Positions 23,768 to 45,301 of a DNA stretch of 64,000 nt are shown here, piece by piece. The first letter of the stretch is position 1; each line of letters begins with the position of its first letter. The stretch lies in assembly GCA_964228555.1 (NCBI GenBank), contig CAXQZU010000022.1:15695-79694 (forward strand). The letters are read 5' to 3'. A program made the position numbers and the translations under genes. The stretch is from Planctomycetota bacterium (GTDB taxonomy: Bacteria; Planctomycetota; PLA2; JAEUHO01). The notes under the pieces are model-generated. The model saw nothing but the letters and a program-made list of their open reading frames with translations, was not told the origin of the DNA and made no database searches.

Positions 23768-24160
23768 ATGAGCGCGGCGCACCCCCACCCGTCCGAGGCC
23801 CGGCTGCGCCGGGACGCCGACATCCGCGCGGTGCTGGACCGGGGCGAGGCCTTCCCGGGCCGCGAGGCACTGGTGCGACGGCTGGCGCGCGAGGACGGCC
23901 TGGCCCGCCTGGCCCTGAGCGTGCCCCGTGGCTACGGCCACGCGCCACGCCGCAACCGCTTCCGCAGGCTGGTGCGCGAGGCCTTCCGGGCCCTGCGGCC
24001 CTCGCTGCCGCCGCTGGACCTGGTCGTGAGCCCGCGCCGTGGCGCCGCGGAGCCCACGCTGGCGGGCCTGCGCGCCGATCTCGAGCGAGCCGGCCGGGCC
24101 GCAGCGGGCTCGGGCGCACCGCCGCGCGCGCCGCGGCCGGCGAGGCCGCGACGCCGATGA
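23768..24160 (+). CDS. rnpA: ribonuclease P protein component
   Basis: RnpA signature (RLRRDADIRAVLDRG...ARLALSVPRGYGHAPRRNRFRRLVREAFR). Stop overlaps the yidD start (ATGA). Confidence 0.82.
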   Translation: MSAAHPHPSEARLRRDADIRAVLDRGEAFPGREALVRRLAREDGLARLALSVPRGYGHAPRRNRFRRLVREAFRALRPSLPPLDLVVSPRRGAAEPTLAGLRADLERAGRAAAGSGAPPRAPRPARPRRR

Positions 24161-24411
24161 CGCCCGCCCGCCTCGGGCTGGGCCAGCGCCTCGCCCTCGG
24201 CCTCGTGGGGGCCTACCGGCTCTTGCTCAAGCCGTGGCTGCCGCCGGCCTGCCGCTTCGAGCCCTCCTGCTCGACCTATGCCCAGCAAGCCATCCGGCTG
24301 CACGGGGCGTGGCGCGGCATGCTGCTGTCGGTGCGCCGGCTAGGCCGCTGCCGGCCGGGCGGCGGCTTCGGGGAGGATCCCGTCCCCCCCGCACCTGCGC
24401 GCCCGTCCTGA
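24157..24411 (+). CDS. yidD: membrane protein insertion efficiency factor YidD
   Basis: YidD signature (YRLLLKPWLPPACRFEPSCSTYAQQAI..HGAWRG). Translationally coupled to rnpA. Confidence 0.88.
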   Translation: MTPARLGLGQRLALGLVGAYRLLLKPWLPPACRFEPSCSTYAQQAIRLHGAWRGMLLSVRRLGRCRPGGGFGEDPVPPAPARPS

Positions 24412-24470
24412 GCAGGCCCGGCCCGGCAGGCCCGAGGGCCCGCCCGCGGCCATCGACCGGCCAGGGCGGC

Positions 24471-27400
24471 TCAGCGCGCGGGCGGGCCGTCGAGGTTCGT
24501 GTTCGTGCGCAGGTCGAACAACGGCTGGAGGCGCTCGAACTCCTCGAGGAAGGTGGCCACCTTGCCATTCATGGCACCGTCGCGCGAGCCCACCGGCATG
24601 CGCATGCCGCGGGGCAGGTCGCGCTGGGCGCCGAAGACGCGCCGCGACATGTACTCCGAGTACGCACGGGGGCTGAACTCGGCCTTCGTGGGGTAGACAC
24701 GCTCGGCCACCCGCACCAGGAAGGCACAGCCGGTGCCGTCAGGCGCACGCTTCTCGTCACGCAGCGTCGCGCGCCCGAAGGTGCCCGGGCTGGCATCCGT
24801 GGTGTCGTTCTTCGCCTCGCCACGGCGCACGAGGCCGTAGCCCCCCTGCCGCACGAAGTTGCGCCGCAGCAGCTGCGCCTGCTCCAGCGCGCTGGCACCA
24901 GGCGCAGGCCGCGCCTGCGTCGGCACGCTGCTGCCGATGAACAGGCCGGTGCGCTCGTCGTGCACCACGGCCCCGGGGCGCGCCTTCTTCCAGGCCTCCA
25001 GCGCGGCCTCCCACCGGGTGTCCGCCTGGCCCTCGGCCACGACAGGAGCCTGCAGCACGTCGCGCTGGAAGGCGGCCAGCTCGCGTTCGGCGCGGTCGAG
25101 CTGGCGACGCTCCAGCCATCGCTCGAAGACCTGGTCCTGCACCTCCGCCAGGTCCGGGATGCGCTCGGCCGTCACCTGCAGCGTGCGGGCCACCACCTTC
25201 GTGAGGCGCTGGTTGAGCTGGATGGGGATCGAGGCCACGTCGCCGTCACGCTGGTTGCCGAGGTAGAGCGGCAGCTCGTCAAGGCCAGGCACGGCGCTGA
25301 TCTCGGCGCGCGTGAGCGACACCGCCGTCTTGTCGGCCTTGTCGGTCGTGTAGTACTCGAGGAAGCGGTGCCCGCGCGCGCGCTCGGCCTCGCCCGGCTG
25401 GTACTTGCCCAGCCGCTCCTCGGAGAGCAGGTCCACCAGCGTCACGCCATCGGCGGGTCGCGGGGCCATGCTCGTGGCCGCCGTGGCCTCCCACGCCTTG
25501 ATGGCCTCGCGGCTGGCCACGACCGCCTTCCAGTGGTGGTTGAGCACCCGCTCGAGGAACTCCTGGCGCACCAGGATCTCGCGCCAGCCCTGCTCCTCGT
25601 ACTCCTTGCGCAGCGGGTCGGGCGCGGCGCCCTCGGCCGGTGCCGGCGGGGCCGCCAGCCCGGGGAAGCAATCGCGGGACGGGACGCGCACCACGGCCTG
25701 CGCCGGCCAGCCCAGCTTGCGGGCCAGGTCCATGCCATGCCCGTCCTGGGGGTCACGGGGGTCCTTCGCGGTGAACTCGTAGCCCGACCCCGCCGTGCCA
25801 CGCCCAGACTGCCAGCGGTCGAACAGGGCCTGCTCGTCTTGCGGCCCGACGCGCTGCTCCGGGCAGTCTTCCCACAGGCGCTTGAGGGTGGCCTCGCTGA
25901 CCAACGGCAGGTGCATCACGAGGGCCTCGAAGCGACGCCGCATCGGCTGCTGGAAGGCCGAGCGCACGGCAGGCTGGGCGTAGAAGGCCTCGAGGTCGCT
26001 GGCGTTGCCGCCACGCAGGTCGTCGGCCGTCCCGGGCTGCCCGTCGGCGCCCACGCTGCTGGCCTCGTACACCCCCTGCTCGGCGTTGGCCAGCGACACG
26101 GTCACGGCGCGGCCCCAGGCATCCGTACGCCCGGCCGGGAGGTAGGCAGCGAGCACCGGGCCCAGCGCGACGCGCCCCCGCTCGGCCGTCACCACCGCCA
26201 CGATGTCGTCGGGCGTGCCTGCCACGCCGTCAGGTCCCGCAGAGGCGAGGCGGGGCGGCTCGTCGCCGGAGGCGCCGCCCGTGCCCAGCACGTAGGAAAG
26301 CGGGCGGTTCCAGCCGTCTTGCGGCACGCTGGAGAGCGCCGGCATCGCAGCCCCGCCCGCAGCACGCGCGGGCGCGCGCACGAGGTCCTCGAGGCTGCCC
26401 GGCCAAGCCCGGGGATCGCCGGCGCTGCGCCAGCGCACCAGGGCCTCGGCCACGCGGCCCACCGCCTTGTGCGTCTCCAGCTGGGCCTGCATGTCCAGGC
26501 CCACGTCATCCGCGGTCCCTTCCTTGCCGTCGGGGCCGTGGCTGCCCAGCACCGGATCGCCCGTGCCCAGCGTGTAGCGGAGGTCCTTGCCCCACGGGTC
26601 ACGCACGAGGTTCTCGGCCAGCGCCCAGCGCTGGTTCTGCACATCCTTGGCGGCCAGCACGGCGAGGGTGGCGGGCCACTCCCCCTTGGCGTCCTTGTAG
26701 TCGCGCGCCCGGTTGAGCGCGAGGCGCAGGCGCCGCACCGTCTCCACGACCGAGCGCAGCGGCTGCTCGGCCTCGGCCAGCGCCCGGCGCGTGGATTCCT
26801 CGGCTCGCACCTCGTCCGCGAACGAGGAGGCCTCCACGGCGAGATAGCGCAGGTCCACGCGCTCGCGGCTGGCCTTCCAGCCCTCGTAGGCCTGCGCGTA
26901 GGTCTGGTCGAAGCGCACCGGGTCCACGAGGCAGCTCAGCAGCTCGTCCTTGAGCACCACCCCGCGCACGACCTGCTCGAAGTCGGCCGGCGAGCGCCCC
27001 CACACCTGCGCGATGAAGCGCTCGTAGGCCTCGGGCGTCACCTCCAGCGAGGCCGTGCGCTCGTTGCTGGCCAGCACGGACTTGATGGCCCGGCCCAGCT
27101 GGGCCGGGCCGCAGCGGTAGCCAGCCTGCTCGGAGGCCCGCGCCAGCAGGGCATGCATCCACGCGACCTTGCGCATCGCGGGCGACTGGGAGCCGCGCAG
27201 GTAGCTGGCGTAGTCGATGGTCGGCATCCGCACCGTGGCCATGTACTGCTGGAACACCAGCAGCAGCCGCTGCATGTCCTCGTCGCTGATGGCGACGCGG
27301 TCAGGCTCGCCCACCAGCTGGAAGCTGCCCCCCAGTTCGGACTGCACCGCCGCGGGCGAGCCGCCCGCGCACTGGGTCACGGCTCCCGCCACCGAGAAGG

Positions 27401-27476
27401 TGGCCAGCAGCACGATGACCAGCCCGAGCAGGAAGTGCCGCTCGTAGCGCTTGAAGGCCTTGGTCCAGTGCGCCAT
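24471..27476 (-). CDS. large signal-anchored extracytoplasmic protein with repeated T2SS-GspG-C-terminal-like (DPWG...GxDG...DD) modules
   Basis: 1001 aa. N-terminal anchor MAHWTKAFKRYERHFLLGLVIVLLATFSVAGAV. At least three GspG-C-terminal-like modules (LVRDPWGKDLRYTLGTGDPVLGSHGPDGKEGTADDVG; WNRPLSYVLGTGGASGDEPPRLASAGPDGVAGTPDDIV; DAWGRAVTVSLANAEQGVYEASSVGADGQPGTADDL). ATG verified at 27476. Confidence 0.7.
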   Translation of the reverse strand: MAHWTKAFKRYERHFLLGLVIVLLATFSVAGAVTQCAGGSPAAVQSELGGSFQLVGEPDRVAISDEDMQRLLLVFQQYMATVRMPTIDYASYLRGSQSPAMRKVAWMHALLARASEQAGYRCGPAQLGRAIKSVLASNERTASLEVTPEAYERFIAQVWGRSPADFEQVVRGVVLKDELLSCLVDPVRFDQTYAQAYEGWKASRERVDLRYLAVEASSFADEVRAEESTRRALAEAEQPLRSVVETVRRLRLALNRARDYKDAKGEWPATLAVLAAKDVQNQRWALAENLVRDPWGKDLRYTLGTGDPVLGSHGPDGKEGTADDVGLDMQAQLETHKAVGRVAEALVRWRSAGDPRAWPGSLEDLVRAPARAAGGAAMPALSSVPQDGWNRPLSYVLGTGGASGDEPPRLASAGPDGVAGTPDDIVAVVTAERGRVALGPVLAAYLPAGRTDAWGRAVTVSLANAEQGVYEASSVGADGQPGTADDLRGGNASDLEAFYAQPAVRSAFQQPMRRRFEALVMHLPLVSEATLKRLWEDCPEQRVGPQDEQALFDRWQSGRGTAGSGYEFTAKDPRDPQDGHGMDLARKLGWPAQAVVRVPSRDCFPGLAAPPAPAEGAAPDPLRKEYEEQGWREILVRQEFLERVLNHHWKAVVASREAIKAWEATAATSMAPRPADGVTLVDLLSEERLGKYQPGEAERARGHRFLEYYTTDKADKTAVSLTRAEISAVPGLDELPLYLGNQRDGDVASIPIQLNQRLTKVVARTLQVTAERIPDLAEVQDQVFERWLERRQLDRAERELAAFQRDVLQAPVVAEGQADTRWEAALEAWKKARPGAVVHDERTGLFIGSSVPTQARPAPGASALEQAQLLRRNFVRQGGYGLVRRGEAKNDTTDASPGTFGRATLRDEKRAPDGTGCAFLVRVAERVYPTKAEFSPRAYSEYMSRRVFGAQRDLPRGMRMPVGSRDGAMNGKVATFLEEFERLQPLFDLRTNTNLDGPPAR

Positions 27477-27669
27477 GGGACAGGCGGGCTCCGGGGTGAA
27501 GGGGCGAGGATAGGGGCGACCCGCCCATGGGCAAGCCACCCCGCCCGAGCCCAGCGTCCGGGCGGTACGCGCCCCCGGCACGCCGGGCCAGCAGCCCCGC
27601 AGGCTGCGGCGGGCCCCGGCGGCGCGCGCGGCGGGCGCCTCGCGGCCACAGGCCCCGGCGCCCGGGCGG

Positions 27670-28437
27670 CTAGAGGCGCGCGAGGTCCTTGGCGCTGGGC
27701 AGGTCCTTGAGGTCGTTGAGGCCGAAGGCCGTCAGGAACTTGCGTGTCGTGCCGTACAGCATCGGCCGGCCGGGCTGGTCGCTGCGGCCCACCACCTTGA
27801 CGAGGTTGCGGTCCAGCAGCGCCCGCAGCGCCTCGCCCACCTGCACGCCACGGATGCGCTCGATCTCGGGCCGCGCCACGGGCTGGCGGTAGGCCACGAT
27901 GCTCAAGGTCTCCAGCTGGCCCTGCGACAGCCGGCCGTCCACCACGTGGCGCGCGAGGCGCCGCACGTACTCGGCGAACTCGGGACGCGTGACCACGCGC
28001 ACGCCACCGGCAACTTCCTGCAGCTCGACGCTCAGGCCCGCCGCCTGCCAGCGCTGGCGCACCTGCTCGATGGCCTCGCGCACGTGGATGGCGCTCGACA
28101 GGCCCAGCACGTCCCGGATGCGCTCGGGCGTGAGTGCGTCGCCGGCGGCCAGCAGCATGGCCTCGATGGCGCCCGCCAGGCGCTCCGGCGGCGGCGGCGG
28201 GCCCTGCGCACGCCGCTTGCGCGCGGGGGCAGCGAGCCCGGCGGACGCCGCGTCGGCATCCGCACCGGCCGCGGGCTCGCCCTCGGCTCCCGCCGCGCCC
28301 TCCCCGGGCTGCGACACGGCACCGTCCGCAGCGTCCGCACCCGTGCCTGCCAGCGCCTCACCCGACGGCGCGGCTTCCTCCTCGGAGGCCTGCGTCGGAG
28401 GCGTGCCACGGCCCTTGCGTCGGTTGCTGCTCATCAC
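27670..28437 (-). CDS. scpB: segregation and condensation protein B with an acidic low-complexity N-terminal extension
   Basis: ScpB winged-helix pair (AIEAMLLAAGDALTPERIRDVL ... LETLSIVAYRQPVARPEIERIRGV). The first ~90 aa are Glu/Ala/Gly-rich. Confidence 0.85.
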   Translation of the reverse strand: MMSSNRRKGRGTPPTQASEEEAAPSGEALAGTGADAADGAVSQPGEGAAGAEGEPAAGADADAASAGLAAPARKRRAQGPPPPPERLAGAIEAMLLAAGDALTPERIRDVLGLSSAIHVREAIEQVRQRWQAAGLSVELQEVAGGVRVVTRPEFAEYVRRLARHVVDGRLSQGQLETLSIVAYRQPVARPEIERIRGVQVGEALRALLDRNLVKVVGRSDQPGRPMLYGTTRKFLTAFGLNDLKDLPSAKDLARL

Positions 28438-28487
28438 CGCACCCTACCGCAGGCCAGCCCCAGCGCGCCGCCCGGACGGCCGCGCGC

Positions 28488-29087
28488 TCACTTGTTGAGC
28501 TGCTCCCGCATGGCGCGATACGCCGGTCCCCACGTGTCTTCCTTGCTGGACGCCGCGTCGTAGCTGGCCGCATCGCTGGCGTCCTTGCCGCCGACGGGGT
28601 ACCAGCGCCGGAGGAGGTCCCACGCCAGCTGGCGCCCGAGCTGGTCGCCGCCCTTGTCGTCCGGCCGCTTGATGAGGTCCAGCAGGTGCCGCTTGGCGAA
28701 GGTCTTGCGGCGGGTGGTGTCGTTGCGCTTGTCGGGAGCCAGCTCGGGGTCGCGAGAGGCCACGGCCGCATCGCTCAGGGCGCCGGCGGCACGCTGCCGC
28801 AGGCCCCGGTCGGCTTCCGGGTCGGCCAGGATCTTGGCCAGGTCCTCGGCCTTCACGCGGTTGCGCTTGCCCCAGTCCTCTTCCTGGTACTTGGCGTACT
28901 CGTCCACCTGGTCCTCGCGCGGGTCGCGCTCGGCCAGCTGGATCCACTTGTCCACCAGCGAGCCCAGCGCCTCGTGCCGGCGCTGCGCGTCGGCCACGGT
29001 CTCGGCCCGGGCCTGGCCCGAGCCGCCCCCCACGAGCCCCACGAGGGCCACGGCGACGAGGCCGCGCATGGCAAGCCCGGCGCGCAT
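28488..29087 (-). CDS. secreted hypothetical protein (last gene of the pseudopilin operon)
   Basis: Signal peptide MRAGLAMRGLVAVALVGLVGGGSG; charged, Trp-containing mature part. ATG shares a base with the upstream gene's TGA stop (TGATG). Confidence 0.6.
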   Translation of the reverse strand: MRAGLAMRGLVAVALVGLVGGGSGQARAETVADAQRRHEALGSLVDKWIQLAERDPREDQVDEYAKYQEEDWGKRNRVKAEDLAKILADPEADRGLRQRAAGALSDAAVASRDPELAPDKRNDTTRRKTFAKRHLLDLIKRPDDKGGDQLGRQLAWDLLRRWYPVGGKDASDAASYDAASSKEDTWGPAYRAMREQLNK

Positions 29088-30562
29088 CAGCGGAACTTCA
29101 CCGTGACGTCCACCATCGCGCCGGCGCAGCGGTCGCACAGGTAGGACACGGTCTGGCCCGTCTGGCTGGTCTTGCTGATGATGCCCTGTCCCTGGCAGGT
29201 GCGGCAGGGCGATGCATCGTCATCCTCGGCCACCTCGAAGAGCTGGCTGGTCTCGACGAACTGCGCCATGAGCCACGAGGCACGCGTCGGGGTGTCGGCC
29301 TTGACCCACCACTCGTCCTGCGTCGGCGGCTTGGGCAGCTGCATCGTGGGGGCAGCACCCCCACCACCCTGCTGGGGCCGGTTGCCCTGGCTGCCCGCGC
29401 TGGCCCGCGGCGGCTGGATGCGGGGCTTGCGCGCGATGAAGGTGCCCGATCCGTAGGAGGCCCGCGACCAGCCCGACTTGGCCACGCCCTGCCAGCGGGT
29501 GTCCCACCACAGGCGCACCTCGTCCACGGTCACGGCATCGATCTTGTTCATGCGCTCGGCCAGCGCCTCGAAGGCGGCATCCGGCAGCTCGCGCTTGGCC
29601 CACGAGCGGGCGTCCGCGAGCGTGACGTCCTTGTCGCGCACCTCCGCCTCGATCAGGCGGCGCACGATCTTGCGCGCGAACTCGTAGCGCGCGATCTGCC
29701 GGAAGTGCTTGTCACGGCGCTTGGTGAACTCGCCCTTGAGCGTCTCCAGCGCCTTGAGCACGGCCTCGCTGGACCCGGGGTGCTTGGCCTCGAAGCCCTC
29801 GATGCCCGCGCGCACGTTCTTGAACAGGTTGCTGTTGAGCTTCACCTTGAGGTCGCGCAGCGTGGCCAGCGCGGCCTGGTCCTTCAGCAGGGCCTCCACG
29901 CGCGTGGCACGCTGCTCGGCCGACGCGCGGTTGAGGAACTCGGGGTCGGCCGACGCGCGCCGGAAGGAGTCCAGCGCCAGCTGCAGCGCGCCCGCCCACT
30001 CGGCGAACTCCGCCACGCGGAAGGCCGTGCGGCCGTCCGTGCTGTCGAGGCCCTGCGGCGGGTCCTGCTGCGCCAGCTCGGCCGCCAGCTGGTCCACCAG
30101 CTGCTGCGAGGTCCACACCTCGCGCGGGTCGAGGTTCTCCTCGCTGCGGTCCACGACCTGCGACAGGGGCACGGGGAGCACCTCGCCGTTGCGTCGCAGG
30201 TAGATGGTCGTGGCGTCCTCGCGCTCGATGACGCCGTACATCTCCTGCTCGTCCTCGCCCACGCGCGTCACGAGCCGGTGGCCCTTGGCGGTGGACACGG
30301 CCCGGCCCTTCCACTCCCACTCCTCCTGGATGCGGTCGCGGTCGTCGGGCTCCAGGGCGTCCCAGGCGAAGGTGCGCACGGTGCCGCGCTGGAGGTCCTC
30401 GACCACCAGCAGGCGCTCGTCGCTGCGCTCGCGCAACGGCCGGCACTTGACGTTCTCGCCCGTCCTGAGGCGCAGCACGTCAGCCGACGCCGACTGCGGC
30501 TCCAGCGCCAGCGGCAGCAAGGCCAGCGCCACCACGAGGGCACGCGTGAGGAAGGTCGTCAT
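29087..30562 (-). CDS. secreted hypothetical protein with a C-terminal CxxC...CxxC zinc-ribbon-like motif
   Basis: Signal peptide MTTFLTRALVVALALLPLALEPQSASA. Strong RBS GGAGG 8 nt upstream. C-terminus has CRTCQGQG...CDRCAG. Follows the last pseudopilin by 3 nt. Confidence 0.7.
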   Translation of the reverse strand: MTTFLTRALVVALALLPLALEPQSASADVLRLRTGENVKCRPLRERSDERLLVVEDLQRGTVRTFAWDALEPDDRDRIQEEWEWKGRAVSTAKGHRLVTRVGEDEQEMYGVIEREDATTIYLRRNGEVLPVPLSQVVDRSEENLDPREVWTSQQLVDQLAAELAQQDPPQGLDSTDGRTAFRVAEFAEWAGALQLALDSFRRASADPEFLNRASAEQRATRVEALLKDQAALATLRDLKVKLNSNLFKNVRAGIEGFEAKHPGSSEAVLKALETLKGEFTKRRDKHFRQIARYEFARKIVRRLIEAEVRDKDVTLADARSWAKRELPDAAFEALAERMNKIDAVTVDEVRLWWDTRWQGVAKSGWSRASYGSGTFIARKPRIQPPRASAGSQGNRPQQGGGGAAPTMQLPKPPTQDEWWVKADTPTRASWLMAQFVETSQLFEVAEDDDASPCRTCQGQGIISKTSQTGQTVSYLCDRCAGAMVDVTVKFR

Positions 30563-30565
30563 GGG

Positions 30566-31027
30566 TTACCTCCGGGTCCCGCCGCGCCCGGGCGCCGCAG
30601 CCGCGGGCGCGAGCGAGGCAGGATCGAACATGGAACGGAACAGGGCGATGGGCTTGAGCACGTGCTCGACACGGCCCTCGCGCCGGATGGCCGCCAGCGC
30701 GACCACGCCGGCGCCCGTCGGGTCGAAGGTGCTGGGTGACCAGTCCACGACCACATCGTAGCCCGTCAGCGAGAGCGGGTAGGTCTTGCGCCCGGTGGAC
30801 GGCAGGTCGCGCGGCAGGCCGCCGTAGCGGTCCACCTCCTGCTGCACGATCACGAGCACCTCGGGCCGCAGGCGCCGCAGCTCGGTGTCGAGCCGGCGTG
30901 CGGAGAGGTGCTGCGTGCCGATGGCGAACAGGGGCAGGATGGCGAGGCAGCCCACGAGCAGCATGGACAGCGCCACCATCACCTCGAGGAAGGAGAAGCC
31001 GTGCTGGGCGCGCGCGGGAAGGCTCAA
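30566..31027 (-). CDS. small prepilin-type pseudopilin (minor pilin)
   Basis: TTG start coupled to the upstream stop (TTGA), with GGGAGG upstream. Leader MSLPARAQHG precedes FSFLEVMVALSMLLVGC (class III signal peptide, G-F-x-x-x-E). The rest of the 759-aa ORF in the track is an out-of-frame overlap artefact. Confidence 0.72.
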   Translation of the reverse strand: MSLPARAQHGFSFLEVMVALSMLLVGCLAILPLFAIGTQHLSARRLDTELRRLRPEVLVIVQQEVDRYGGLPRDLPSTGRKTYPLSLTGYDVVVDWSPSTFDPTGAGVVALAAIRREGRVEHVLKPIALFRSMFDPASLAPAAAAPGRGGTRR

Positions 31028-32298
31028 CGGCCACCTCCCGCGCGGAAGGTGCGGTCGCGCCACGCGGGCAGCGCCACCACTGTCGTGGCCGCCTGGCCCA
31101 CCCACACGTCCGCGCCCACGTCGTGGGACTGCTTGCCGGTGCCCCGCTCGCCACGCTCGACGGTCACGGTCAGGCCCACGGGGTCGATGCGCGTGGCGTC
31201 GTACCGCATCCACTCGGTGCCCACCTTGAGGAAGCGGGGCCCGCTGGCCCGGCCCAGCAAGGGCTCCAAGGACTCCACGGGCAGCCGCGTGGCCTCGGCC
31301 GGCACCGTGTCCGACAGCCTCGTGTCGCCGCGCTTGTAGCCGCCCAGCACGGGCGGGATCAGCGTGGCCTCCAGCCGCGCGTACTGCGGGAAGAGGTCGT
31401 CGCTGGGGTCGCCCAGGCTGGCCGGGTCGCGGAACAGCGGCCACGACTTGTCCAGCGCGCGCGTGCTGTCCCACACGGGGCCCACGTACGGCACGTCCTC
31501 GCCACCGCCGCGGTCGGTGCCCGACTCCCAGTCGCGCACGCCGGCGCGGCGCCACGTGACGGCGAAGTGCAGCACGCCCTCGTGCTTCTTCTCGAAGCGC
31601 GCACGCACCTCTGCCAGCGTGTCGAAGCTGGCCGGCTCCAGCAGCGAGTCCGGCCCCCCCACGGGCGACTGGAAGCCGCGGAAGAGGGTCAGCACGCTGG
31701 GACGCGCTGCGTCCAGCGGCACGGCCAGCCAGCACACCGTCATCAGGCCGCCCGTGGCCTTGAAGACGGTGCCGGCGGTGGCCCGCTCGAGCTCGGGCTT
31801 CGTGTAGGGCTTGGCCGTCTCGCCGGCACGCACGGGATCGCCGGCCGTGCGCAGGCGCGGGTCGTTGGCCTCGTCGCCGGTGTGCACCACGAAGGCCACG
31901 TAGGGGCAGGGATAGCCCTTGAGGCCCGGGTCCGCCTGGTCGCGCAGCAGCACCGTGCCGGCCCGCAGGCGCACGCCGACCGGCGGCGGAGGCGCCGGCT
32001 TGGGCATGCCGGGCTCCAGCATCTCCTCGCTGGGGACGATGGGCGGGTCGAGGCTGTCGGGCAGCGCGATGCGCTGCAGGTCGGCCAGCACCTCGGGCAG
32101 CAGCGTGTCCTGGCGGTCGGCCAGCTCGCTGTCGCGTGCCCCCACGCTGAACATCTGGGCGCCCTGCCGCATCATGAACACGGCCGTGCCGCCCAGGATG
32201 CTGAAGATCGCCACCGAGATCAGCAGCTCCAGCAGCGTGAAGCCGCCGCTGGCCGGGCCGCGCGGGCGCGAGGGGCGCTGGGTGGCCGCCGCGCTCAT
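31024..32298 (-). CDS. prepilin-type pseudopilin (large minor pilin, GspK/PilX-size)
   Basis: Leader ...GPASGG precedes FTLLELLISVAIFSILGG (G/FTLLE prepilin motif). 424 aa. ATG overlaps the upstream stop (ATGA). Confidence 0.85.
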   Translation of the reverse strand: MSAAATQRPSRPRGPASGGFTLLELLISVAIFSILGGTAVFMMRQGAQMFSVGARDSELADRQDTLLPEVLADLQRIALPDSLDPPIVPSEEMLEPGMPKPAPPPPVGVRLRAGTVLLRDQADPGLKGYPCPYVAFVVHTGDEANDPRLRTAGDPVRAGETAKPYTKPELERATAGTVFKATGGLMTVCWLAVPLDAARPSVLTLFRGFQSPVGGPDSLLEPASFDTLAEVRARFEKKHEGVLHFAVTWRRAGVRDWESGTDRGGGEDVPYVGPVWDSTRALDKSWPLFRDPASLGDPSDDLFPQYARLEATLIPPVLGGYKRGDTRLSDTVPAEATRLPVESLEPLLGRASGPRFLKVGTEWMRYDATRIDPVGLTVTVERGERGTGKQSHDVGADVWVGQAATTVVALPAWRDRTFRAGGGR

Positions 32299-33506
32299 CG
32301 CGTCCCCCCTGCGGGCGCCTTGCCGGCGGAGGTGTCGCCCTCGGCCACGGGCGGCGCGCCCATGTCGGCGCGGACCATGCCGCTGCGGCCCAGCTCGAGC
32401 ACCAGCGGCAGGTCGCCTGGACGCGTGGCGTCCCGCACCTGCAGCACCACGTCCTGCGGGTGCTGCACGGCGTCCAGGCGCCCGTTGGCGTAGCGCACGC
32501 GCAGCGGCAGGCCCTTGCCCGACGGCGAGAGCACGGAGAACTGGTAGCCGTCGGGCAGCTGGATGCGGTCGTCACGCGTGCTGAACACGCCGCGGAACAC
32601 AAAGCTGTCCATCCGGCCCTGGTAGGGCTGCGTGGCCGAGCCGATGCGCAGGGCCACGGCGCCCTCGGGCGGCACGGCGATGCGGCGCGGGAGCGTGGAG
32701 GCCGGCGGCGGCGGCGGGGCGCCGCGCGCCACGCCGGGCCGGCGCACCGGGCGCTCGAGGCCATCCACCTCGAACAGCGGCGCGGTGCCGTCGAAGGCCA
32801 CCCGCACGTGCACCCAGCGACCGTGGCCGCGCACCGGCGTGCCATCGGTCTCGAAGGTCACCCAGCTGCCCTCGCCGCGGCCGTCGGCAGGCAGCAGGTT
32901 CAGGCGCAAGCGCAGGTCGTAGTCGGAGCCCGTCACGCCGCGGAACAGCGACACCTCGTACGCGCCGGCCCCATCGACCAGCACCATGATGGGCGCCGCG
33001 CCGGTCGGCACGATCCACGCCTCCAGGTCCAGGCCCTCGGTGGTGGCGAAGGCCGCCTGCGGCTGGAAGGCAAGCACGCCCCCGCGGGCGAAGAGCGCGC
33101 CGCCGCCCGTGCGCCCACCCTCGGGGTCCACCTTCACGTCGCCCTGCACCGCCATCGGCAGCAGGCCGCTGGCGCCGTCGATGCGCTCGAAGGCGTGGCT
33201 GAGCACCGTCTCGGCCACGTGCACCGTGGCCTCGTCGGTCTCGCGGCCGTTCTCGTCCTTGGCCCGCTGGAAGGAGAGGGTGGCCAGCCGCCCGCCCATG
33301 CTGCGCGACTGCGCCCGGCGCGCCGCATCGAGGAGCTGCGTGCGGGCCAGCGTCATGCCCGTGGCCCGCCCCGCGCCCTGGATCCAGCCCACGGAGAGGC
33401 CGGCCATGACGGCCACGATGCCCATGATCACGATCAGCTCGACGAAGCTGAAGCCTCGCGGGCTGCCCGTGCGCAGGCTGCCGGGGGTGGCAGGCTCGAT
33501 CACCAT
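32295..33506 (-). CDS. prepilin-type pseudopilin (large minor pilin)
   Basis: Leader MVIEPATPGSLRTGSPRG precedes FSFVELIVIMGIVAVMAGL. 403 aa. ATG overlaps the upstream stop (ATGGTGA). Confidence 0.85.
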   Translation of the reverse strand: MVIEPATPGSLRTGSPRGFSFVELIVIMGIVAVMAGLSVGWIQGAGRATGMTLARTQLLDAARRAQSRSMGGRLATLSFQRAKDENGRETDEATVHVAETVLSHAFERIDGASGLLPMAVQGDVKVDPEGGRTGGGALFARGGVLAFQPQAAFATTEGLDLEAWIVPTGAAPIMVLVDGAGAYEVSLFRGVTGSDYDLRLRLNLLPADGRGEGSWVTFETDGTPVRGHGRWVHVRVAFDGTAPLFEVDGLERPVRRPGVARGAPPPPPASTLPRRIAVPPEGAVALRIGSATQPYQGRMDSFVFRGVFSTRDDRIQLPDGYQFSVLSPSGKGLPLRVRYANGRLDAVQHPQDVVLQVRDATRPGDLPLVLELGRSGMVRADMGAPPVAEGDTSAGKAPAGGTR

Positions 33507-34153
33507 CCCTTGCGGTCGTCCTCGGTGTTGGGCATGCCGTCCTCGCCCATGCTGAAGACCTGGAAGCCGTTGGGGTTCACGAACCCGCCAGCCTCCTCCT
33601 TCCACGGCTTGGGCTGCACGGCACCCTGCGTGCGCGAGATGTAGGTGGGCGGGTCGCGGTCGGCCTGCACGTAGGCCGTGTTCACGAAGTAGATGAGCGG
33701 GTTGCCCCAGCCATCGACGATCTCGCGCAGCTCCACGCCGCGGCTCGTGGCCGCGGCGGCCAGCCGGTCGTCGTCGCTGTTGGCGAGGTCGCGCTCCTCG
33801 TTGAACTCGGCGTCGGTGCCCACCGAGGGCCAGTAGAGGGCCTGATAGAGCGCCTCGATGCCCTCGTTCTCGCCGTTGCTCGTGTGCTTGATGGGCGTCC
33901 CGACGCTGCCCGCCGCGAGGTGGATGTCCTTGAGCAGCACGGGCGGGTACATGCCGTGCTTGCCCTTCCACGCATCCGAGAGCGCCTTCACGCGACGCAG
34001 CACGTCGTCGGTCTGCACCTGCGGGCCGCGCTTGATCCAGATCTGGACCACGACCACGCCCAGGCCGGCCAGCACGGCGATGATGCCCATCACCACGAGG
34101 ATCTCGATGAACGAGAAGCCAGCCTGGCGTCGACGGGAGGCGAGCATGCGCAT
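33500..34153 (-). CDS. GspG/PilA-like major pseudopilin
   Basis: Leader MRMLASRRRQAG precedes FSFIEILVVMGIIAVLAGL. GspG-type C-terminal module (DGWGNPLIYF ... NPNGFQVFSMGEDGMPNTEDD). AGGAG 8 nt upstream of the ATG verified at 34153. Confidence 0.88.
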   Translation of the reverse strand: MRMLASRRRQAGFSFIEILVVMGIIAVLAGLGVVVVQIWIKRGPQVQTDDVLRRVKALSDAWKGKHGMYPPVLLKDIHLAAGSVGTPIKHTSNGENEGIEALYQALYWPSVGTDAEFNEERDLANSDDDRLAAAATSRGVELREIVDGWGNPLIYFVNTAYVQADRDPPTYISRTQGAVQPKPWKEEAGGFVNPNGFQVFSMGEDGMPNTEDDRKGW

Positions 34154-34191: not shown

Positions 34192-37100
34192 CTACTTGCG
34201 GACGCGGACGACCCGGATGTCCTTGACCTTGACGTCGTACGGGAGGGCCGAGGGCGACCAGCCGCCGAGCCACAGCTCGGCCTTGCCGCTGACGCCCTTG
34301 AAGCCGCTCACCTTGTCGCTCACCACGGGCACCTGCTCGTCGTTGAGGTACACGGCCATCAGGCCCTCGCGAGCGTCCTCGCGCACGATGCGCACCTCGA
34401 CCCACTCGCCCGCCGGCCAGGCACGCTCGTTGCCGGCCTCGTCGCGCACGCGGGCCACGTTGCCCTCCTTCCACTGCGCGGAGAGGCCGGTGCCGATGCG
34501 GGCCGCCACCAGGCCCTTCTCGAAGCACAGCAGCACGCCCGGATGGCGCCCGCCGATGCCGCCGGCGCCCGCGCCCGAGGTGCTCGTCGCACCCTGCACG
34601 CCCACGCCGAAGAAGATGTTGTTGGCGCGCGAGCCGTCCTCTTGCGTGGTCGGGATGCGCAGCTTGAGGCGCACCTCCTCGAAGGTGCTCTTGTCGAAGA
34701 AGGCCTGGCAGTAGGCCGCGACGGTGGGATCGGCCATCGAGCCGTCCTTGTCCGCCTTGCCCTCGAAGACGAGCAGCCCGCCCTCGGGCTCGAGGCTCAC
34801 CTTCACGCTGCTGCGCTCGGCGGTCACCCACTCCTTGGTGAGCTGGCTCATGCCCTCGAAGGACACGACCTTCTCCTCCAGCGAGCGCCAGTGCTTGACG
34901 CGCGTGAGGGTCTTGTCGGCCCACGTGCGCCACGCAGCCCACGGCTGCACCGGCTGGCCCTCCTCGGCGGCCGGCACCTTGCCCAGCACCAGCACGAGGT
35001 CCTGCTGGCAGGCGTCGTAGTTCTCGTCGCCACCCAGCCGGTAGCTGGCGTAGGCGCGCATGCACAGGGCCGCCGGCTGCTCCAGCAGGTTGCGGTCGTC
35101 GTTGCGCTTGAGGATGCGATCGCAAGCCTCGCGCGCCAGCTCGAAGCGCTTGCGGGCCGAGAGGTGCTGGGCCTGCAGGAGCACCCACGCCTCGCGCAGC
35201 GTCGCTGCCACGGTCTTGGCGCTCACGCCGTCGGCACGGGCTGCGCGCGAGGCAAAGGCCACGGCCGCCTCGTGGTGCTCGGCCGACGGCAGGGCCAGGA
35301 TGGCGTCGAGCCGGGCGTTCTCGTCGCCCAGCGCGGAGCGGCTGCTGCCCGCCTCGCCCTGCGTGGCGCGACCCGCGGTCTCCAGGCCCCAGCGCAGGTG
35401 GTTGAGGGCCAGCCAGCCGTCCAGCTCGCTCGCGTCCGGCGCAAGGTCCAGCGAGCGCCGCAGGGCCCGGATGGCCGCCGCGGTGTTGCCCGCGCGCGTG
35501 GCCAGCACGCCGGCGAGGTGCTCGAGGTAGGACGTGCGCGCCGCCTCCTCGCGCGCGGCCGAGAGGAACTGTCCCGCCTGCCCCGGCTCGATGCCCAGCG
35601 GCGGCAGGGCCGCCGCGGCCACGGCGGCGGGATCGGCGGCCGGCGCCGCGGGGTCGGCCGGCGGCGGGGCCTTGAGCGCCATCGCGATCAGGGCGCGGCC
35701 CAGCGAGGGCGACACGGTCTCGTCGTCGCGGCGGCCCGGCGAGGCGCCCTGGCGCAGGGCCAGCTCGCAGGCCTCGAAGGCGCCCGCCGCAGCGCGCGTC
35801 TCGCCCAGGCGCCAGTGGGACAGGCCCAGGTTGTAGAGCGCCTGGGCACGCCACGCCCCGGCCGCCTCGGCCGAGGTGGCCGCCATCGCGTAGGCGCTCT
35901 TGGCGCCCGCGAGGTCGCCCAGGGCGTAGAGCACGCCACCCCGGGCGAGGAGAGCGCGCGGGTGGTCACCACGCTGCGAGAGCGCGGCGTCGGCAGCCTG
36001 GCGGGCCTGCGGCAGCTCCCCCACGCGCAGCGCTGCCTCGGCACGGCGCACCTGCGCATCGAACGAGGCCCCCGCGCGCCCGTAGGCGGCCAGGGCGTCG
36101 CGATCGCGGCCCAGGGCGGTGAGCGCATCACCCAGGCCCAGCGCCGCGCGCTCGTTGCCCTCCTCCAGGCCCTTGGCCTTGGTGAAGTAGGCCAGCGACT
36201 GGTCCGGCAGGCCCATGCCCACCAGGGCCGCATCGCCCAGACGGATCCACGGCTCGGCCCGGGTGGGCACGGCCTTGGCGTAGGCCGAGAGGGCCCGCAG
36301 CGCGGCCTGCTCGTCCTTGAGGGCGTTGTAGGCCTCGACGAGCGAGACCAGCACCTCGGCCTGCACCTCGGGCGGGTGGGCCTTCTCGGCCACGGCGCGT
36401 GCACGCTCCAGCAGCAGCACCGCGCGACGCCAGCCCTCGCGCTGCTCCTTGCCCGTGCGCCCCAGGGCCGCCATCTCGCGCGCGGCCTCCTGCAGGCCTC
36501 GCAAGTTCATCGTGGCCTCGACCGGCTCGATGCCCAGCACGCGACGCACGGCCTGCTCGTAGGTGTTCTCCACCGTGCGGCGCAGGTTCCACAAGCCGAA
36601 CTTGGCGGCCGGGTCCGTGTTGCGGTTGCCCTTGCTCTTCTTGGCCACGCTCGTGGGGTCCAGCCCCGCCTTGGTGGCCTGCTCGGCGGAGCCGATGAGG
36701 GCCCATTCCACCTGCATCTTGTCGATGCCCTCGCCACCCGCGAGGCGGCGCTCCAGCGCCCGGAAGGCGCTCTCGCCACGGCGCACGCCGTCGATGGCCA
36801 CGATGGCCACGAAGGTCTGCTTGCCCCCCACGTCCACCCAGTCATAGACGTCCTCGGGCGTGGGCACGTACTGCTCGAAGACGACCGGCGCCACCTGCAG
36901 CGGCACCGAGGCGTCGTTGGGGTCCAGCGCGGGCAGCGTGCCCCGCAGCAGGCGCCGCGCCGAGGGCGCGAGGCCCGGCACCGTGGGAGGCAGGGGCACC
37001 TCCAGCGCGATCTCCGGCGGCAGGTCGATCTCCACCGGGGGCAGCGGGCGCGTGTCGCTCACGCGCTCGTAGGGGTTGCGGCGGTCGCGGCCGCCCGACT

Positions 37101-37419
37101 CGAAGGAGGGCCGCGCCATCGGCGCGGGGGCCAGCGTGCGCTTGGCGGCGAAGCCGGCCAGCACGGTGTCCTCGCGCGGGCGCGGAGGCGGCCCGGAGAG
37201 ATCGGCCTTGTCGCGCAGCACCACGGCGGTGAACACCACCACGGCCGCCGCGTAGGCCAGCAGGGCCCGCTCCTTGCCCATGACGCGGTCCAGCGCCGCG
37301 GTGACGGCGAGGGCGCCCAGGCCCAGCAGCAGGAACACGAAGAAGGTGCCCAGGGCCGCGCCCACCAGCGGGGCGGGGGCCAGCACGGGCGCCAGGGTCA
37401 GCATGGTGTCGAGGCTCAC
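34192..37419 (-). CDS. large polytopic-anchored TPR-repeat protein of the pilus-like cluster
   Basis: GTG start overlapping the upstream stop (GTGA); alternative ATG at 37404. N-terminal TM helices (LGTFFVFLLLGLGALAVTAAL; AAVVVFTAVVL) then about 900 aa of TPR-like repeats (AYAKAVPTRAEPWIRLGDA, AYAMAATSAEAAGAWRAQALYNLG). Only 38 nt from the gspG-like gene, so no room for a promoter. Confidence 0.75.
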   Translation of the reverse strand: MSLDTMLTLAPVLAPAPLVGAALGTFFVFLLLGLGALAVTAALDRVMGKERALLAYAAAVVVFTAVVLRDKADLSGPPPRPREDTVLAGFAAKRTLAPAPMARPSFESGGRDRRNPYERVSDTRPLPPVEIDLPPEIALEVPLPPTVPGLAPSARRLLRGTLPALDPNDASVPLQVAPVVFEQYVPTPEDVYDWVDVGGKQTFVAIVAIDGVRRGESAFRALERRLAGGEGIDKMQVEWALIGSAEQATKAGLDPTSVAKKSKGNRNTDPAAKFGLWNLRRTVENTYEQAVRRVLGIEPVEATMNLRGLQEAAREMAALGRTGKEQREGWRRAVLLLERARAVAEKAHPPEVQAEVLVSLVEAYNALKDEQAALRALSAYAKAVPTRAEPWIRLGDAALVGMGLPDQSLAYFTKAKGLEEGNERAALGLGDALTALGRDRDALAAYGRAGASFDAQVRRAEAALRVGELPQARQAADAALSQRGDHPRALLARGGVLYALGDLAGAKSAYAMAATSAEAAGAWRAQALYNLGLSHWRLGETRAAAGAFEACELALRQGASPGRRDDETVSPSLGRALIAMALKAPPPADPAAPAADPAAVAAAALPPLGIEPGQAGQFLSAAREEAARTSYLEHLAGVLATRAGNTAAAIRALRRSLDLAPDASELDGWLALNHLRWGLETAGRATQGEAGSSRSALGDENARLDAILALPSAEHHEAAVAFASRAARADGVSAKTVAATLREAWVLLQAQHLSARKRFELAREACDRILKRNDDRNLLEQPAALCMRAYASYRLGGDENYDACQQDLVLVLGKVPAAEEGQPVQPWAAWRTWADKTLTRVKHWRSLEEKVVSFEGMSQLTKEWVTAERSSVKVSLEPEGGLLVFEGKADKDGSMADPTVAAYCQAFFDKSTFEEVRLKLRIPTTQEDGSRANNIFFGVGVQGATSTSGAGAGGIGGRHPGVLLCFEKGLVAARIGTGLSAQWKEGNVARVRDEAGNERAWPAGEWVEVRIVREDAREGLMAVYLNDEQVPVVSDKVSGFKGVSGKAELWLGGWSPSALPYDVKVKDIRVVRVRK

Positions 37420-38336
37420 GAACGGCCCTCCTGCGCGTCGAGATCGAGGCTCGCCTCCGGGCGCACGGCCACGCTCTCCAGGGTCAAGGTCACTTCCACG
37501 AGGCCGGTGGCGGCCTTGGCACGCGACGGCTGCTGCGCGACCAGCCCGGCGATGGGCGTGGGCTGGCGCGGGTCGGTCAGCAGGTCCAGCACCGCCTCCA
37601 CGCATGGCGCAGGCGCCGTCATCACGATCTTGACCGGCCACTCCTGCAGGAACGCATCCGGGCCCGTCGAGCGCGGGTTGTCGAAGGTGACGCTGTCGAT
37701 CGAGGTGGCACCGTTGCGGATGGCGACGTCTGCGATGCGCGCCACCAGCGCCAGGTTGGCCAGGCGACGCTCCAGGTCCTCGCGAGGCACGCTCGTCACG
37801 CTGGCGAAGCCCAGCAGCTCGGCCTCGAGGTCCATGTCGGCGCGGTTGGCGCGCGTGCGCAGCACGTTCCACACGTCCGAGAGCAGCGAGGAGAAGGCCA
37901 CGTTGGGGTTGCCCGTGCGGAACAGGGTCGTGCGGTCCACGGCCAGCCGCTCGGCATCCTTCAGGGCCTGCTCGGCCGCCTTGGCATCGCCCTCGAAGGC
38001 GGATGCGCCCACGCCACCGCGCGCGTAGGCCGCCACCAACGCCATGCGCACCCACGCCTGGATGCGGTCACCGCCGGCCGAGGCCGGGTCGAGCGCCGCG
38101 GCCATCGTGCGCACCGAGGCGTCGAACTGCTCGGCGTTGGCCCGCAGCGTGGTGCCCACGCCGTCGCGCGGCAGCACCAGCGTCTTGACCGAGGACTCGG
38201 CCGAGAGCGCCTGCGCCTCCGCCTCCTCGGGGCTGGGCGTGATCACGTGCACGGCGACCAGGCCCAGCAGGAGGATGCCCAGCCCGAACAGGACGGGGCG
38301 CCAGAAGGAACCGTAGCGTTGCCAGAGCTCGTCCAC
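37416..38336 (-). CDS. GspM/PilO-like bitopic inner-membrane component
   Basis: Short cytoplasmic N-terminus, one TM (FWRPVLFGLGILLLGLVAVHVI) and a periplasmic domain, sitting directly after the PilM/N-like gene. GTG start with GGAGG 7 nt upstream. Confidence 0.65.
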   Translation of the reverse strand: MDELWQRYGSFWRPVLFGLGILLLGLVAVHVITPSPEEAEAQALSAESSVKTLVLPRDGVGTTLRANAEQFDASVRTMAAALDPASAGGDRIQAWVRMALVAAYARGGVGASAFEGDAKAAEQALKDAERLAVDRTTLFRTGNPNVAFSSLLSDVWNVLRTRANRADMDLEAELLGFASVTSVPREDLERRLANLALVARIADVAIRNGATSIDSVTFDNPRSTGPDAFLQEWPVKIVMTAPAPCVEAVLDLLTDPRQPTPIAGLVAQQPSRAKAATGLVEVTLTLESVAVRPEASLDLDAQEGRS

Positions 38337-40301: not shown

Positions 40302-40353
40302 GGGGAAGTGCTCCGGAACGTGATGCGAGAGGGGTGGGGAAGGGTGGAGACGG

Positions 40354-42813: not shown

Positions 42814-43180
42814 GCCTTGCCGCTCCTTCGTGCCCGGGCCGCCCTCGCCCCGGGCATACGCCCCCCGCCAGCCGGCCAAGGCTGCTCGGAAGGCCTCCGG
42901 ACCCTGGGTCAACCCATTGGGTAAACCGGCACCCTACCCCCACGGAACGACGGGACGCAACGCCCAACCCAGCGCGGCCTTGCGCGTGGCCACGGCCCGG
43001 GCCGGCCCCAGGGCCGGCCTGCGGCCGGCGTGACGAGCCGGCTCGACCCTGGCAGCGAAGTTGACACCTGCTGGTAACGAGGTAGCGCCGCCCTCTCGGG
43101 TCCTTAGTCTCGGCTGCCGTGCTGCCCCTGCCTCCCCGGCCCGCAGGCGGCCTCGGGTCACCGCAGGCCGCGGCGGGCTC

Positions 43181-45232: not shown

Positions 45233-45301
45233 GAGGCAACCGTCGTGCCAGAGCGCGGCCCCCCGCGGCCTCCACGCCGCGCCCCGGGCGTCACCGAGGC
45301 G

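What the first reader, a model, noticed from the sequence alone, without database searches (positions are those of the whole stretch)
24471..27476. 1001-aa signal-anchored protein built from repeated GspG-C-terminal-like 'DPWG...G-DG...DD' modules
The C-terminal calcium-binding/beta-sheet module that defines T2SS major pseudopilin GspG (DPWGxxYxY...GxDGxxGxxDDI) appears at least three times inside one large protein. This protein lacks a prepilin leader and instead has an N-terminal signal anchor. A large protein carrying the GspG globular module multiple times could be a filament cap, adhesin or substrate related to the pseudopilin system 3 kb away.
Basis: seen in the sequence. Interest (0 to 1): 0.5.

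Follow-up and report, generated by a model that had tools for sequence, protein, structure and literature searches.

The report
PpiD-like chaperone carrying three pseudopilin heads
This 1001-residue membrane-anchored protein is not a pilus component: it is a periplasmic folding chaperone of the PpiD/SurA type into which an uncultured Planctomycetota lineage has inserted three calcium-site-bearing copies of the head domain of the type II secretion pseudopilin GspG, a combination I found no description of.

Summary

The interpretation (filament cap, adhesin or substrate) is not supported. The rest of the protein is a PpiD/SurA-type chaperone scaffold:
- Pfam SurA_N_3 is detected in 5 of 16 family members.

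A profile of the C-terminal half alone finds about 600-700-aa Planctomycetota "SurA N-terminal domain" proteins that lack any T2SSG domain. These align end to end with the target (hhalign 99.95%, E=1e-38), except for one gap covering residues about 226-490, which is the three modules. Two of the short relatives occupy the same locus (pseudopilin operon ... rotamase, ScpB, X, then convergent yidD and rnpA).

The target is therefore a positional orthologue of a PpiD-like gene that acquired a roughly 265-aa triple pseudopilin-head insert. The insert is as conserved as the scaffold. About 40 cluster representatives carry it; every locus with a named source is an uncultured Planctomycetota MAG. What the insert does is inferred, not shown. 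Verdict: a new variant of a known kind, of moderate interest.

The parts
24471..27476 (-). Complete CDS, 1001 aa plus stop: PpiD-like chaperone with a triple GspG-head insert.
   Evidence: ORF. The GC3 frame plot supports this frame. Full-length homologues at 30-99% identity support it too. The AF2 model has pLDDT 85.7 and pTM 0.67.
27378..27437 (-). N-terminal transmembrane anchor, about aa 14-33, preceded by a short basic cytoplasmic tail. There is no prepilin cleavage motif.
   Evidence: The sequence HFLLGLVIVLLATFSVAGAV lies inside predicted helix 2-33. In homologue P0010 the SurA_N_3 profile match starts at residue 8 and covers this helix.
26802..27344 (-). SurA_N / PpiD 'NC'-type helical chaperone domain, about aa 45-225: a small hairpin, six to seven helices and strand 206-215.
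26496..26771 (-). GspG-head module 1, about aa 236-327: alpha1-C-like helix, DPWG strand and calcium-site pattern D316/T321/D323/D324.
26193..26495 (-). GspG-head module 2, about aa 328-428: helix 329-352, DGWN strand and calcium-site pattern D416/T421/D423/D424.
   Evidence: Best TIGR01710 stretch is 361-423. Module 1 versus module 2 gives z=14.7.
26007..26192 (-). GspG-head module 3, about aa 429-490: sheet-only, no long helix, DAWG strand and calcium-site pattern D478/T483/D485/D486.
   Evidence: It is the third Pfam T2SSG stretch. Module 1 versus module 3 gives z=7.8.
24474..26006 (-). C-terminal PpiD-like scaffold, aa 491-1001, containing at least one parvulin-fold domain and long helices.
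27670..28437 (-). Context only: scpB, directly upstream, lying between the target and the pseudopilin operon.
   Evidence: Pfam SMC_ScpB, E=3.3e-50. It is inverted relative to the target in L001, L009 and L010.
30566..34150 (-). Context only: an operon of four prepilin-type genes. The first (33503-34150) is GspG-like and carries the same D-x4-T-x-D-D C-terminal pattern.
   Evidence: N_methyl and TIGR02532 matches, plus weak GspG/H/J/I matches.
23768..24411 (+). Context only: rnpA and yidD, convergent with the target. Start coordinates are approximate.
   Evidence: tblastn matches to genes called as Ribonuclease_P and YidD in related loci.

Best explanation
The gene encodes a cytoplasmic-membrane-anchored, periplasm-facing holdase chaperone of the PpiD/SurA class. 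It is the positional orthologue of the roughly 640-700-aa 'SurA N-terminal domain-containing protein' of other Planctomycetota.

Shown:
- A single N-terminal transmembrane helix is followed by a SurA_N-type helical domain and a C-terminal region with a parvulin-fold domain.
- Between residues about 226 and 490, an insert of three tandem GspG globular (head) domains interrupts this scaffold. The domains arose by internal duplication.
- Each head domain keeps the GspG calcium-ligand pattern but lacks the prepilin leader and the hydrophobic polymerisation helix.

Inferred:
- Like E. coli PpiD, the scaffold sits beside the Sec translocon and holds newly translocated envelope proteins.
- The three calcium-stabilised head domains pack into one rigid unit that projects from the scaffold.
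- This unit adds a binding surface. The most attractive version is a pilin-head mimic that recognises prepilin-type proteins or the periplasmic parts of the neighbouring pseudopilus machinery. That would make it a chaperone biased towards that system.
For: Scaffold:
- Foldseek of the full model puts the PpiD-YfgM structure 8zht_A first (E=2.2e-5, prob 1.0, 992 columns). SurA, PEB4 and PrsA follow.
- SurA_N_3 matches 5 of 16 members. In P0010 it is above Pfam's cut-off and spans residues 8-176.

Insert into a pre-existing gene:
- A profile of residues 491-1001 alone, run against 1.84 billion representatives, finds only 83 proteins. The weak tail consists of 600-700-aa proteins with SurA_N_3 and no T2SSG.
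- hhalign of the family against these proteins gives prob 99.95% and E=1.1e-38 over 585 columns spanning 12-981. There is a single gap at about 226-490.
- One of their clusters is named 'SurA N-terminal domain-containing protein', Planctomycetota.
- P0083 and P0076 lie in the same neighbourhood...rotamase, ScpB, X. P0076 additionally has a prepilin-type (N_methyl) gene upstream and convergent yidD-rnpA downstream.

Modules:
- The modules-only model has pLDDT 89.9 and pTM 0.86, and its top 11 PDB hits are all GspG proteins.
- The D-x4-T-x-D-D pattern equals the OutG/PulG ligands D117, T/S122, D124 and D125 (PMC13081927). It is conserved across the family.
- The modules are as conserved as the scaffold: mean pairwise identity 0.39, against 0.40 and 0.39.
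Against: - No direct sequence link to E. coli PpiD: hhalign of the family against the single E. coli sequence gives only 11% probability.
- For the window protein itself, SurA_N_3 and Rotamase_2 are below Pfam thresholds.
- Global TM-scores to PpiD are low (0.16-0.22), as expected for flexible multi-domain proteins but not decisive.
- Calcium binding, Sec association, chaperone activity and any interaction with pseudopilins are untested.
- The link to the pseudopilin operon rests only on gene order, which is conserved lineage-wide for housekeeping genes too.
- The fold evidence comes from predicted models built on 14-16 sequences.
Confidence: 0.72

Rival explanations
1. One reading: a pseudopilus-associated structural protein (cap, adhesin or substrate) whose GspG modules dock onto or extend the filament made by the operon 3 kb away.
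For: There are three true GspG head domains with calcium-site residues. A prepilin-gene operon, a PilM-like gene and a secretin lie in the window. The first pseudopilin of that operon carries the same C-terminal pattern.
Against: - No class III signal peptide and no hydrophobic alpha1-N helix. The N-terminus matches the SurA_N_3 anchor instead.
- About 735 of 1001 residues are a PpiD-like chaperone scaffold.
- Module-free orthologues sit at the same locus next to the same kind of operon.
- ScpB separates the gene from the operon and is inverted in three genomes.
- TIGR01710 scores 42 bits, against a cut-off of 88.85.
Confidence: 0.06
2. A PpiD-like chaperone in which the GspG heads are only a rigid, calcium-stabilised spacer or extra generic client-binding surface. 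A co-opted domain with no specific tie to pseudopilins or type II secretion.
For: Same scaffold evidence as the best explanation. The three modules pack as one compact unit (pTM 0.86). The gene-order link to the operon is uninformative because the whole region is collinear. The parvulin domain of E. coli PpiD is itself catalytically inactive, and its functional importance has been questioned (PMC9643414).
Against: The pilin-specific surface features (DPWG strand, calcium loop) are kept invariant in all three modules across about 40 diverged representatives. That is more than a spacer would need, though it may only reflect fold stability. A PpiD-like gene next to a prepilin-type gene is also seen in one distant relative, P0076.
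Confidence: 0.2
3. Artefact: a chimeric ORF created by mis-assembly of a metagenome bin, or by read-through in 75% G+C DNA where long spurious ORFs are common.
For: The window has very high G+C and many long shadow ORFs, for example a 1223-aa antisense ORF over the same region. All sources are MAGs.
Against: - The same architecture and length recur in about 40 representatives at 50% identity or less, from independent NCBI, JGI, ENA and Logan assemblies.
- Codon-position G+C fits this frame.
- The junctions are conserved.
- The AF2 model is confident across both junctions.
Confidence: 0.01

Closest known systems
PpiD (E. coli b0441), the inner-membrane-anchored periplasmic chaperone that pairs with YfgM at SecYEG; more broadly the SurA/PpiD/PrsA chaperone superfamily
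   Same: - A single N-terminal transmembrane anchor, a SurA_N-type helical domain and a parvulin-fold domain further on.
- Nested, multi-domain, mostly helical periplasmic body.
- PpiD is the best PDB fold match. The PpiD architecture is taken from PMC9643414.
   Different: - 1001 aa against 623 aa.
- A 265-aa block of three GspG head domains is inserted after the first strand that follows the N-domain.
- No detectable sequence similarity to E. coli PpiD itself.
- No YfgM partner was looked for.
'SurA N-terminal domain-containing protein' of Planctomycetota (for example the P0081 cluster with MCK6479563.1 and NUN53205.1; also P0076 and P0083)
   Same: - Homologous over residues 12-981 (hhalign 99.95%, E=1e-38).
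- Same locus between scpB and, in P0076, convergent yidD-rnpA.
- Same phylum.
   Different: - They have no T2SSG domain and are 600-700 aa long.
- They score only E of 1e-13 or weaker against the C-terminal profile, whereas module-bearing members score E below 1e-100. The module-bearing proteins therefore form a separate clade.
GspG / PulG / EpsG / XcpT, the major pseudopilin (endopilin) of the type II secretion system
   Same: - Each module has the alpha1-C helix (modules 1 and 2), the D-P-W-G strand, the small sheet and the C-terminal calcium loop D-x4-(S/T)-x-D-D.
   Different: - No prepilin leader, no Glu5 and no hydrophobic alpha1-N helix, so no canonical route into a filament.
- Three copies lie in tandem inside another protein.
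- The score is below the GspG equivalog cut-off.
- NCBI's name for the near-identical MAG protein, 'type II secretion system protein GspG', is therefore misleading.

Membership tests
GspG major pseudopilin (TIGR01710 / Pfam T2SSG) | Class III signal peptide with a prepilin-peptidase site (G|F/M-x-x-x-E) at the N-terminus | tested here: not met
   The N-terminus is MAHWTKAFKRYERHFLLGLVIVLL..., with no G-F-x-x-x-E. Pfam N_methyl is not detected, unlike in the four neighbouring prepilin genes.
GspG major pseudopilin (TIGR01710 / Pfam T2SSG) | Hydrophobic alpha1-N helix that forms the filament core | tested here: not met
   Pfam T2SSG matches start at profile positions about 2-27 inside amphipathic helices. 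The only hydrophobic helix is the SurA_N_3-type anchor at residues 14-33.
GspG major pseudopilin (TIGR01710 / Pfam T2SSG) | Globular head: alpha1-C helix packed on a small antiparallel sheet | tested here: met
   [not shown]
GspG major pseudopilin (TIGR01710 / Pfam T2SSG) | C-terminal calcium site (OutG/PulG ligands D117, S/T122, D125, possibly D124) | tested here: met
   The pattern D-x4-T-x-D-D is present at 316-324, 416-424 and 478-486. The Asp residues are invariant or nearly so across the family. Ligand identities come from PMC13081927. This is a sequence pattern only; binding was not measured.
GspG major pseudopilin (TIGR01710 / Pfam T2SSG) | Equivalog-level score (TIGR01710 at or above 88.85 bits) | tested here: not met
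   42.4 bits, summed over three stretches.
PpiD / SurA-type periplasmic chaperone | Single N-terminal transmembrane anchor followed by a SurA_N-type helical domain | tested here: met
   [not shown]
PpiD / SurA-type periplasmic chaperone | Parvulin-fold (PpiC-type) domain within the periplasmic body | tested here: met
   [not shown]
PpiD / SurA-type periplasmic chaperone | Overall fold most similar to PpiD among solved structures | tested here: met
   Foldseek rank 1 is 8zht_A, the PpiD-YfgM complex (E=2.2e-5, prob 1.00). The next hits are all SurA, PEB4 or PrsA.
PpiD / SurA-type periplasmic chaperone | Detectable sequence homology to E. coli PpiD | tested here: inconclusive
   hhalign of the family profile against the single E. 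coli sequence gives 11% probability over 74 columns in the N-domain. Homology to Planctomycetota SurA_N_3 proteins is strong.
PpiD / SurA-type periplasmic chaperone | Association with SecYEG and YfgM, and holdase activity on translocating proteins | not testable with these tools
   Requires biochemistry. No YfgM homologue was sought.

The most novel reading that the evidence does not exclude
The triple GspG-head array makes this Sec-proximal chaperone a pilin mimic. It would capture newly inserted prepilin-type proteins head to head, or dock on the assembly platform, and hand them to the neighbouring pseudopilus machine. That would be the first dedicated periplasmic chaperone or assembly factor for type IV-filament subunits, built by grafting the subunit's own head domain onto PpiD.
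Probability: 0.15. Interest if true: 0.7.

Novelty: new variant of a known kind. Interest (0 to 1): 0.45.

Why it matters
- Pilin and pseudopilin head domains are normally seen only as filament subunits. Here the head, with its calcium-site residues, is kept under constraint in three copies inside a chaperone, in a protein that cannot polymerise. This is a clear case of domain co-option.
- It corrects a database name: the near-identical MAG protein is labelled 'GspG'.
- It offers a testable idea about how prepilin-type proteins, which are very numerous in Planctomycetota, are handled between Sec insertion and assembly.
- It gives a natural experiment, since orthologues with and without the insert sit at the same locus.
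- The limits are that the family is small, occurs only in uncultured organisms, and has no functional data.

Tried and rejected
- hhalign of the family against the single E. coli PpiD sequence gave only 11% probability over 74 columns, so there is no direct sequence bridge.
- The PDB sequence search with the family profile found only GspG chains and no PpiD or SurA. The scaffold link needed fold search and profile-profile comparison.
- The first attempt to scan genomes with the 16-sequence alignment failed because there was no conserved 7-10-column stretch. A 7-sequence alignment worked.
- Pfam and NCBIfam on the window protein alone report only T2SSG/GspG plus a sub-threshold Qn_am_d_aIV match over about 20 residues of the G-x-D-G loop. 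I regard that match as spurious.
- The sigma-70 promoter and intrinsic-terminator scan of 24100-27800 found nothing, so it says nothing about operon structure.
- Three literature searches (PpiD, pseudopilin and Planctomycetes; PpiD, YfgM and parvulin; T2SSG/PF08334 and SurA_N_3/PF13624) found no description of this architecture.
- BLASTP of the modules against the neighbouring GspG-like pseudopilin gave only short motif matches (E=0.001). Descent of the modules from that gene can be neither supported nor excluded.
- I considered a lipoprotein or cleaved signal peptide, and rejected it. C36 is not conserved, and the residue before it is Q, which does not fit a lipobox.
Full report

Yes. The minus-strand ORF ends at 24471. 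With the ATG at 27476 it encodes 1001 residues. An upstream in-frame GTG at 27581 would add 35 residues. Every homologue starts at the same M-A-x-W-x-K..YER motif and M1 is invariant, so the ATG is the start. Codon-position G+C (third-position G+C 0.93) supports this frame in DNA that is 75% G+C and full of shadow ORFs.

The GspG modules are well supported:
- Pfam T2SSG (PF08334) matches at E=1.8e-15 in three stretches.
- TIGR01710 (GspG) matches in three stretches, but at 42 bits against a cut-off of 88.85.
- A family profile searched against all PDB sequences hits only GspG, EpsG, PulG and XcpT chains.
- The three modules are about residues 236-327, 328-428 and 429-490. The first two include a GspG alpha1-C-type helix. 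The third is sheet-only.

The N-terminus is a short basic tail plus a hydrophobic helix, with no prepilin motif. The pseudopilin operon "3 kb away" is also real. Four prepilin-type genes lie at 30566-34150 on the same strand. Further on there are a PilM-like gene, FHA and sigma-54 regulators, and a TPR-secretin.

**2. Do the modules fold like GspG?**

A separate model of residues 216-500 has pLDDT 89.9 and pTM 0.86, so the three modules are predicted to pack as one unit. Its top 11 Foldseek hits in the PDB are all GspG, EpsG or PulG.

In OutG and PulG the calcium ion is held by the side chains of D117, T/S122 and D125, possibly D124, plus two backbone carbonyls (PMC13081927). The same spacing, D-x4-T-x-D-D, is present in all three modules: D316/T321/D323/D324, D416/T421/D423/D424 and D478/T483/D485/D486. 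The aspartates are invariant or nearly so across the family. Calcium binding is therefore likely, but it is inferred from sequence only.

**3. What is the rest of the protein?**

Several lines of evidence point to the PpiD/SurA chaperone class.

- (a) Foldseek of the full model ranks the PpiD-YfgM structure 8zht_A first (E=2.2e-5, prob 1.0, 992 aligned columns). SurA, PEB4 and many PrsA foldases follow.
- (c) Pfam SurA_N_3 matches 5 of 16 family members. In P0010 it scores above the curated cut-off and spans residues 8-176, transmembrane helix included. A weak Rotamase_2 match in P0015 maps to target residues 657-781.
- (d) The secondary-structure order fits the published PpiD description of an 'NC' domain of six N-terminal helices, followed by nested domains (PMC9643414). 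The target has a transmembrane helix, six to seven helices, then a strand and a long helix.

**4. The modules are an insertion into a pre-existing gene**

I built a profile from residues 491-1001 only, with no GspG part, and ran it against 1.84 billion cluster representatives. Only 83 proteins scored E of 0.001 or better.
- About 40 are full-length proteins of roughly 950-1100 aa, in which this region starts at residue about 470-590. Fragments make up most of the rest.
- The weak tail (E from 1e-13 to 1e-4) consists of proteins of about 600-700 aa.

The proteins in that tail have N-terminal SurA_N_3 domains, four of them above the Pfam cut-off. They have weak Rotamase_2 matches and no T2SSG. 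One cluster is named "SurA N-terminal domain-containing protein" from Planctomycetota.

Profile-profile alignment of the target family against nine of them gives 99.95% probability and E=1.1e-38 over 585 columns, spanning target residues 12-981. There is one long gap in the relatives opposite target residues about 226-490. The N-terminal part of that alignment is independent of how the relatives were found.

Two of the short relatives were placed on contigs.
- P0076 (641 aa) sits in: prepilin gene, 552 aa, 178 aa, Rotamase_2, ScpB, P0076, then convergent yidD and rnpA.
- P0083 (642 aa) sits after Rotamase and ScpB.

This is the target's own neighbourhood. The target is therefore the positional orthologue of a PpiD-like gene that gained a roughly 265-residue insert.

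Three further points bear on the insert:
- The modules resemble each other (module 1 versus 2, z=14.7; module 1 versus 3, z=7.8), which points to internal duplication.
- A few members carry a fourth calcium-site motif within the module region, and hence apparently a fourth module, for example P0017 and P0021.
- Mean pairwise identity is 0.39 in the insert, 0.40 in the N-domain and 0.39 in the C-terminal region. The insert is therefore under the same constraint as the scaffold.

**5. Distribution**

All nine loci found in one-genome-per-species GTDB contigs are uncultured Planctomycetota or Planctomycetia MAGs. The near-identical protein P0001 is labelled "type II secretion system protein GspG" by its source. 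That name is wrong for the protein as a whole.

**6. How much does the neighbourhood say?**

Less than it seems. In every locus long enough to show it, the gene order is collinear with the window: TPR protein, four prepilin genes, 491-aa gene, 216-aa gene, (rotamase), ScpB, target, then convergent yidD-rnpA, followed by histidine kinase, sigma-54 regulator, HtrA and LexA. HtrA is missing in L002/L005, and several short contigs end earlier. This is lineage-wide synteny, not a specific linkage.

ScpB lies between the operon and the target and is inverted in three genomes. In those genomes the target cannot be co-transcribed with the operon.

On the other side, a PpiD-like gene and a standalone parvulin gene lie beside a prepilin-type gene in the distant, module-free relative P0076. 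In addition, the first prepilin gene of the window's operon ends with the same D-x4-T-x-D-D pattern as the modules. These are hints, not evidence of interaction.

**7. Mechanism**

- Shown: the architecture and the evolutionary origin.
- Inferred from the family (E. coli PpiD, PMC9643414): the protein is anchored in the cytoplasmic membrane, faces the periplasm, and holds proteins emerging from Sec.
- Inferred from anatomy: the three heads form a rigid, probably calcium-stabilised unit that projects from the hinge after the N-domain and adds a binding surface.
- Open question: whether that surface is specific for pilin-type proteins, or for the pseudopilus platform, or is generic.

I put 0.72 on [quoted passage not shown]. 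Conditional on that reading, I give the pilin-specific version about one in five.

**8. Rivals**

- Filament cap, adhesin or substrate (0.06). This fails on the missing leader and polymerisation helix, on the chaperone scaffold and on the module-free orthologues.
- Generic spacer or co-opted domain (0.20). This remains open.
- Assembly artefact (0.01). This is excluded by about 40 independent, diverged representatives with conserved junctions.

**9. Novelty and score**

Both building blocks are well known. I found no description of their combination in three full-text searches: three non-polymerisable pseudopilin heads inserted in a PpiD-like chaperone. It is a new variant of a known kind, confined to a small uncultured clade and without functional data. 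Interest is 0.45.

Noticed in passing
window 28438-28487; compare L001 8147-9109, L002 8150-9106, L015 6374-7267: A standalone parvulin (Rotamase) gene of about 300-346 aa lies between the 216-aa gene and scpB in the more distant relatives. It is also present in the module-free relatives L014 and L015. tblastn with the L001 and L002 rotamase proteins finds no match anywhere in the 64-kb window. In the window and its closest relatives (L003, L004) the gap between the 216-aa gene and scpB is too short to hold it.
   Followed up: partly
window 27670-28437 (-); L001, L009, L010: scpB lies on the same strand as the target in the window and most loci. It is inverted in three related genomes, so the target must have its own promoter at least there.
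   Followed up: partly
window 33503-34150 (-): The first prepilin gene of the operon looks GspG-like. It has a prepilin N-terminus, DGWGNPLIYF, and a C-terminal SMGEDGMPNTEDD with the calcium-ligand spacing. It carries a roughly 70-aa insertion and is missed by Pfam T2SSG. PDB matches to GspG are weak (E=0.07-0.27).
   Followed up: partly
window 38346-61734: A type IV-filament-like gene set lies around the operon: a PilM-like ATPase-fold protein (38346-40493), a double-FHA protein (40354-42933), an FHA-GAF sigma-54 activator (43181-45301), large TPR proteins (34192-38055, 46054-50463) and a TPR-secretin fusion (54794-57760, +). No GspE/PilB ATPase or GspF/PilC platform gene was seen in the parts scanned.
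   Followed up: no
window 29087-30562 (-) and 28488-29138 (-): A 491-aa gene and a 216-aa gene directly downstream of the prepilin genes are conserved in all related loci. They have no Pfam or NCBIfam match. The 491-aa protein has a signal-peptide-like N-terminus and a C-terminal C-x-x-C...C-x-x-C motif.
   Followed up: no
window 23768-24411 (+): rnpA and yidD overlap by 4 nt and are convergent with the target. No yidC follows yidD, because the target occupies that side on the opposite strand. The arrangement recurs in every related locus long enough to show it, and in the module-free relative L015.
   Followed up: partly
[not shown]
   Followed up: no
window 24039-27710 (+): A 1223-aa antisense ORF covers the whole target gene. 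It is a shadow ORF typical of 75% G+C DNA, and its codon-position G+C does not fit a coding frame.
   Followed up: yes
P0017 and P0021 (homologues, about 1100 aa): These family members carry a fourth calcium-site motif within the module region, apparently from an extra GspG-type module, so copy number varies within the clade. Five other members (P0019, P0028, P0031, P0033, P0046) have additional motif matches, mostly at positions outside that region (about 161 and 597-714) that were not examined.
   Followed up: partly
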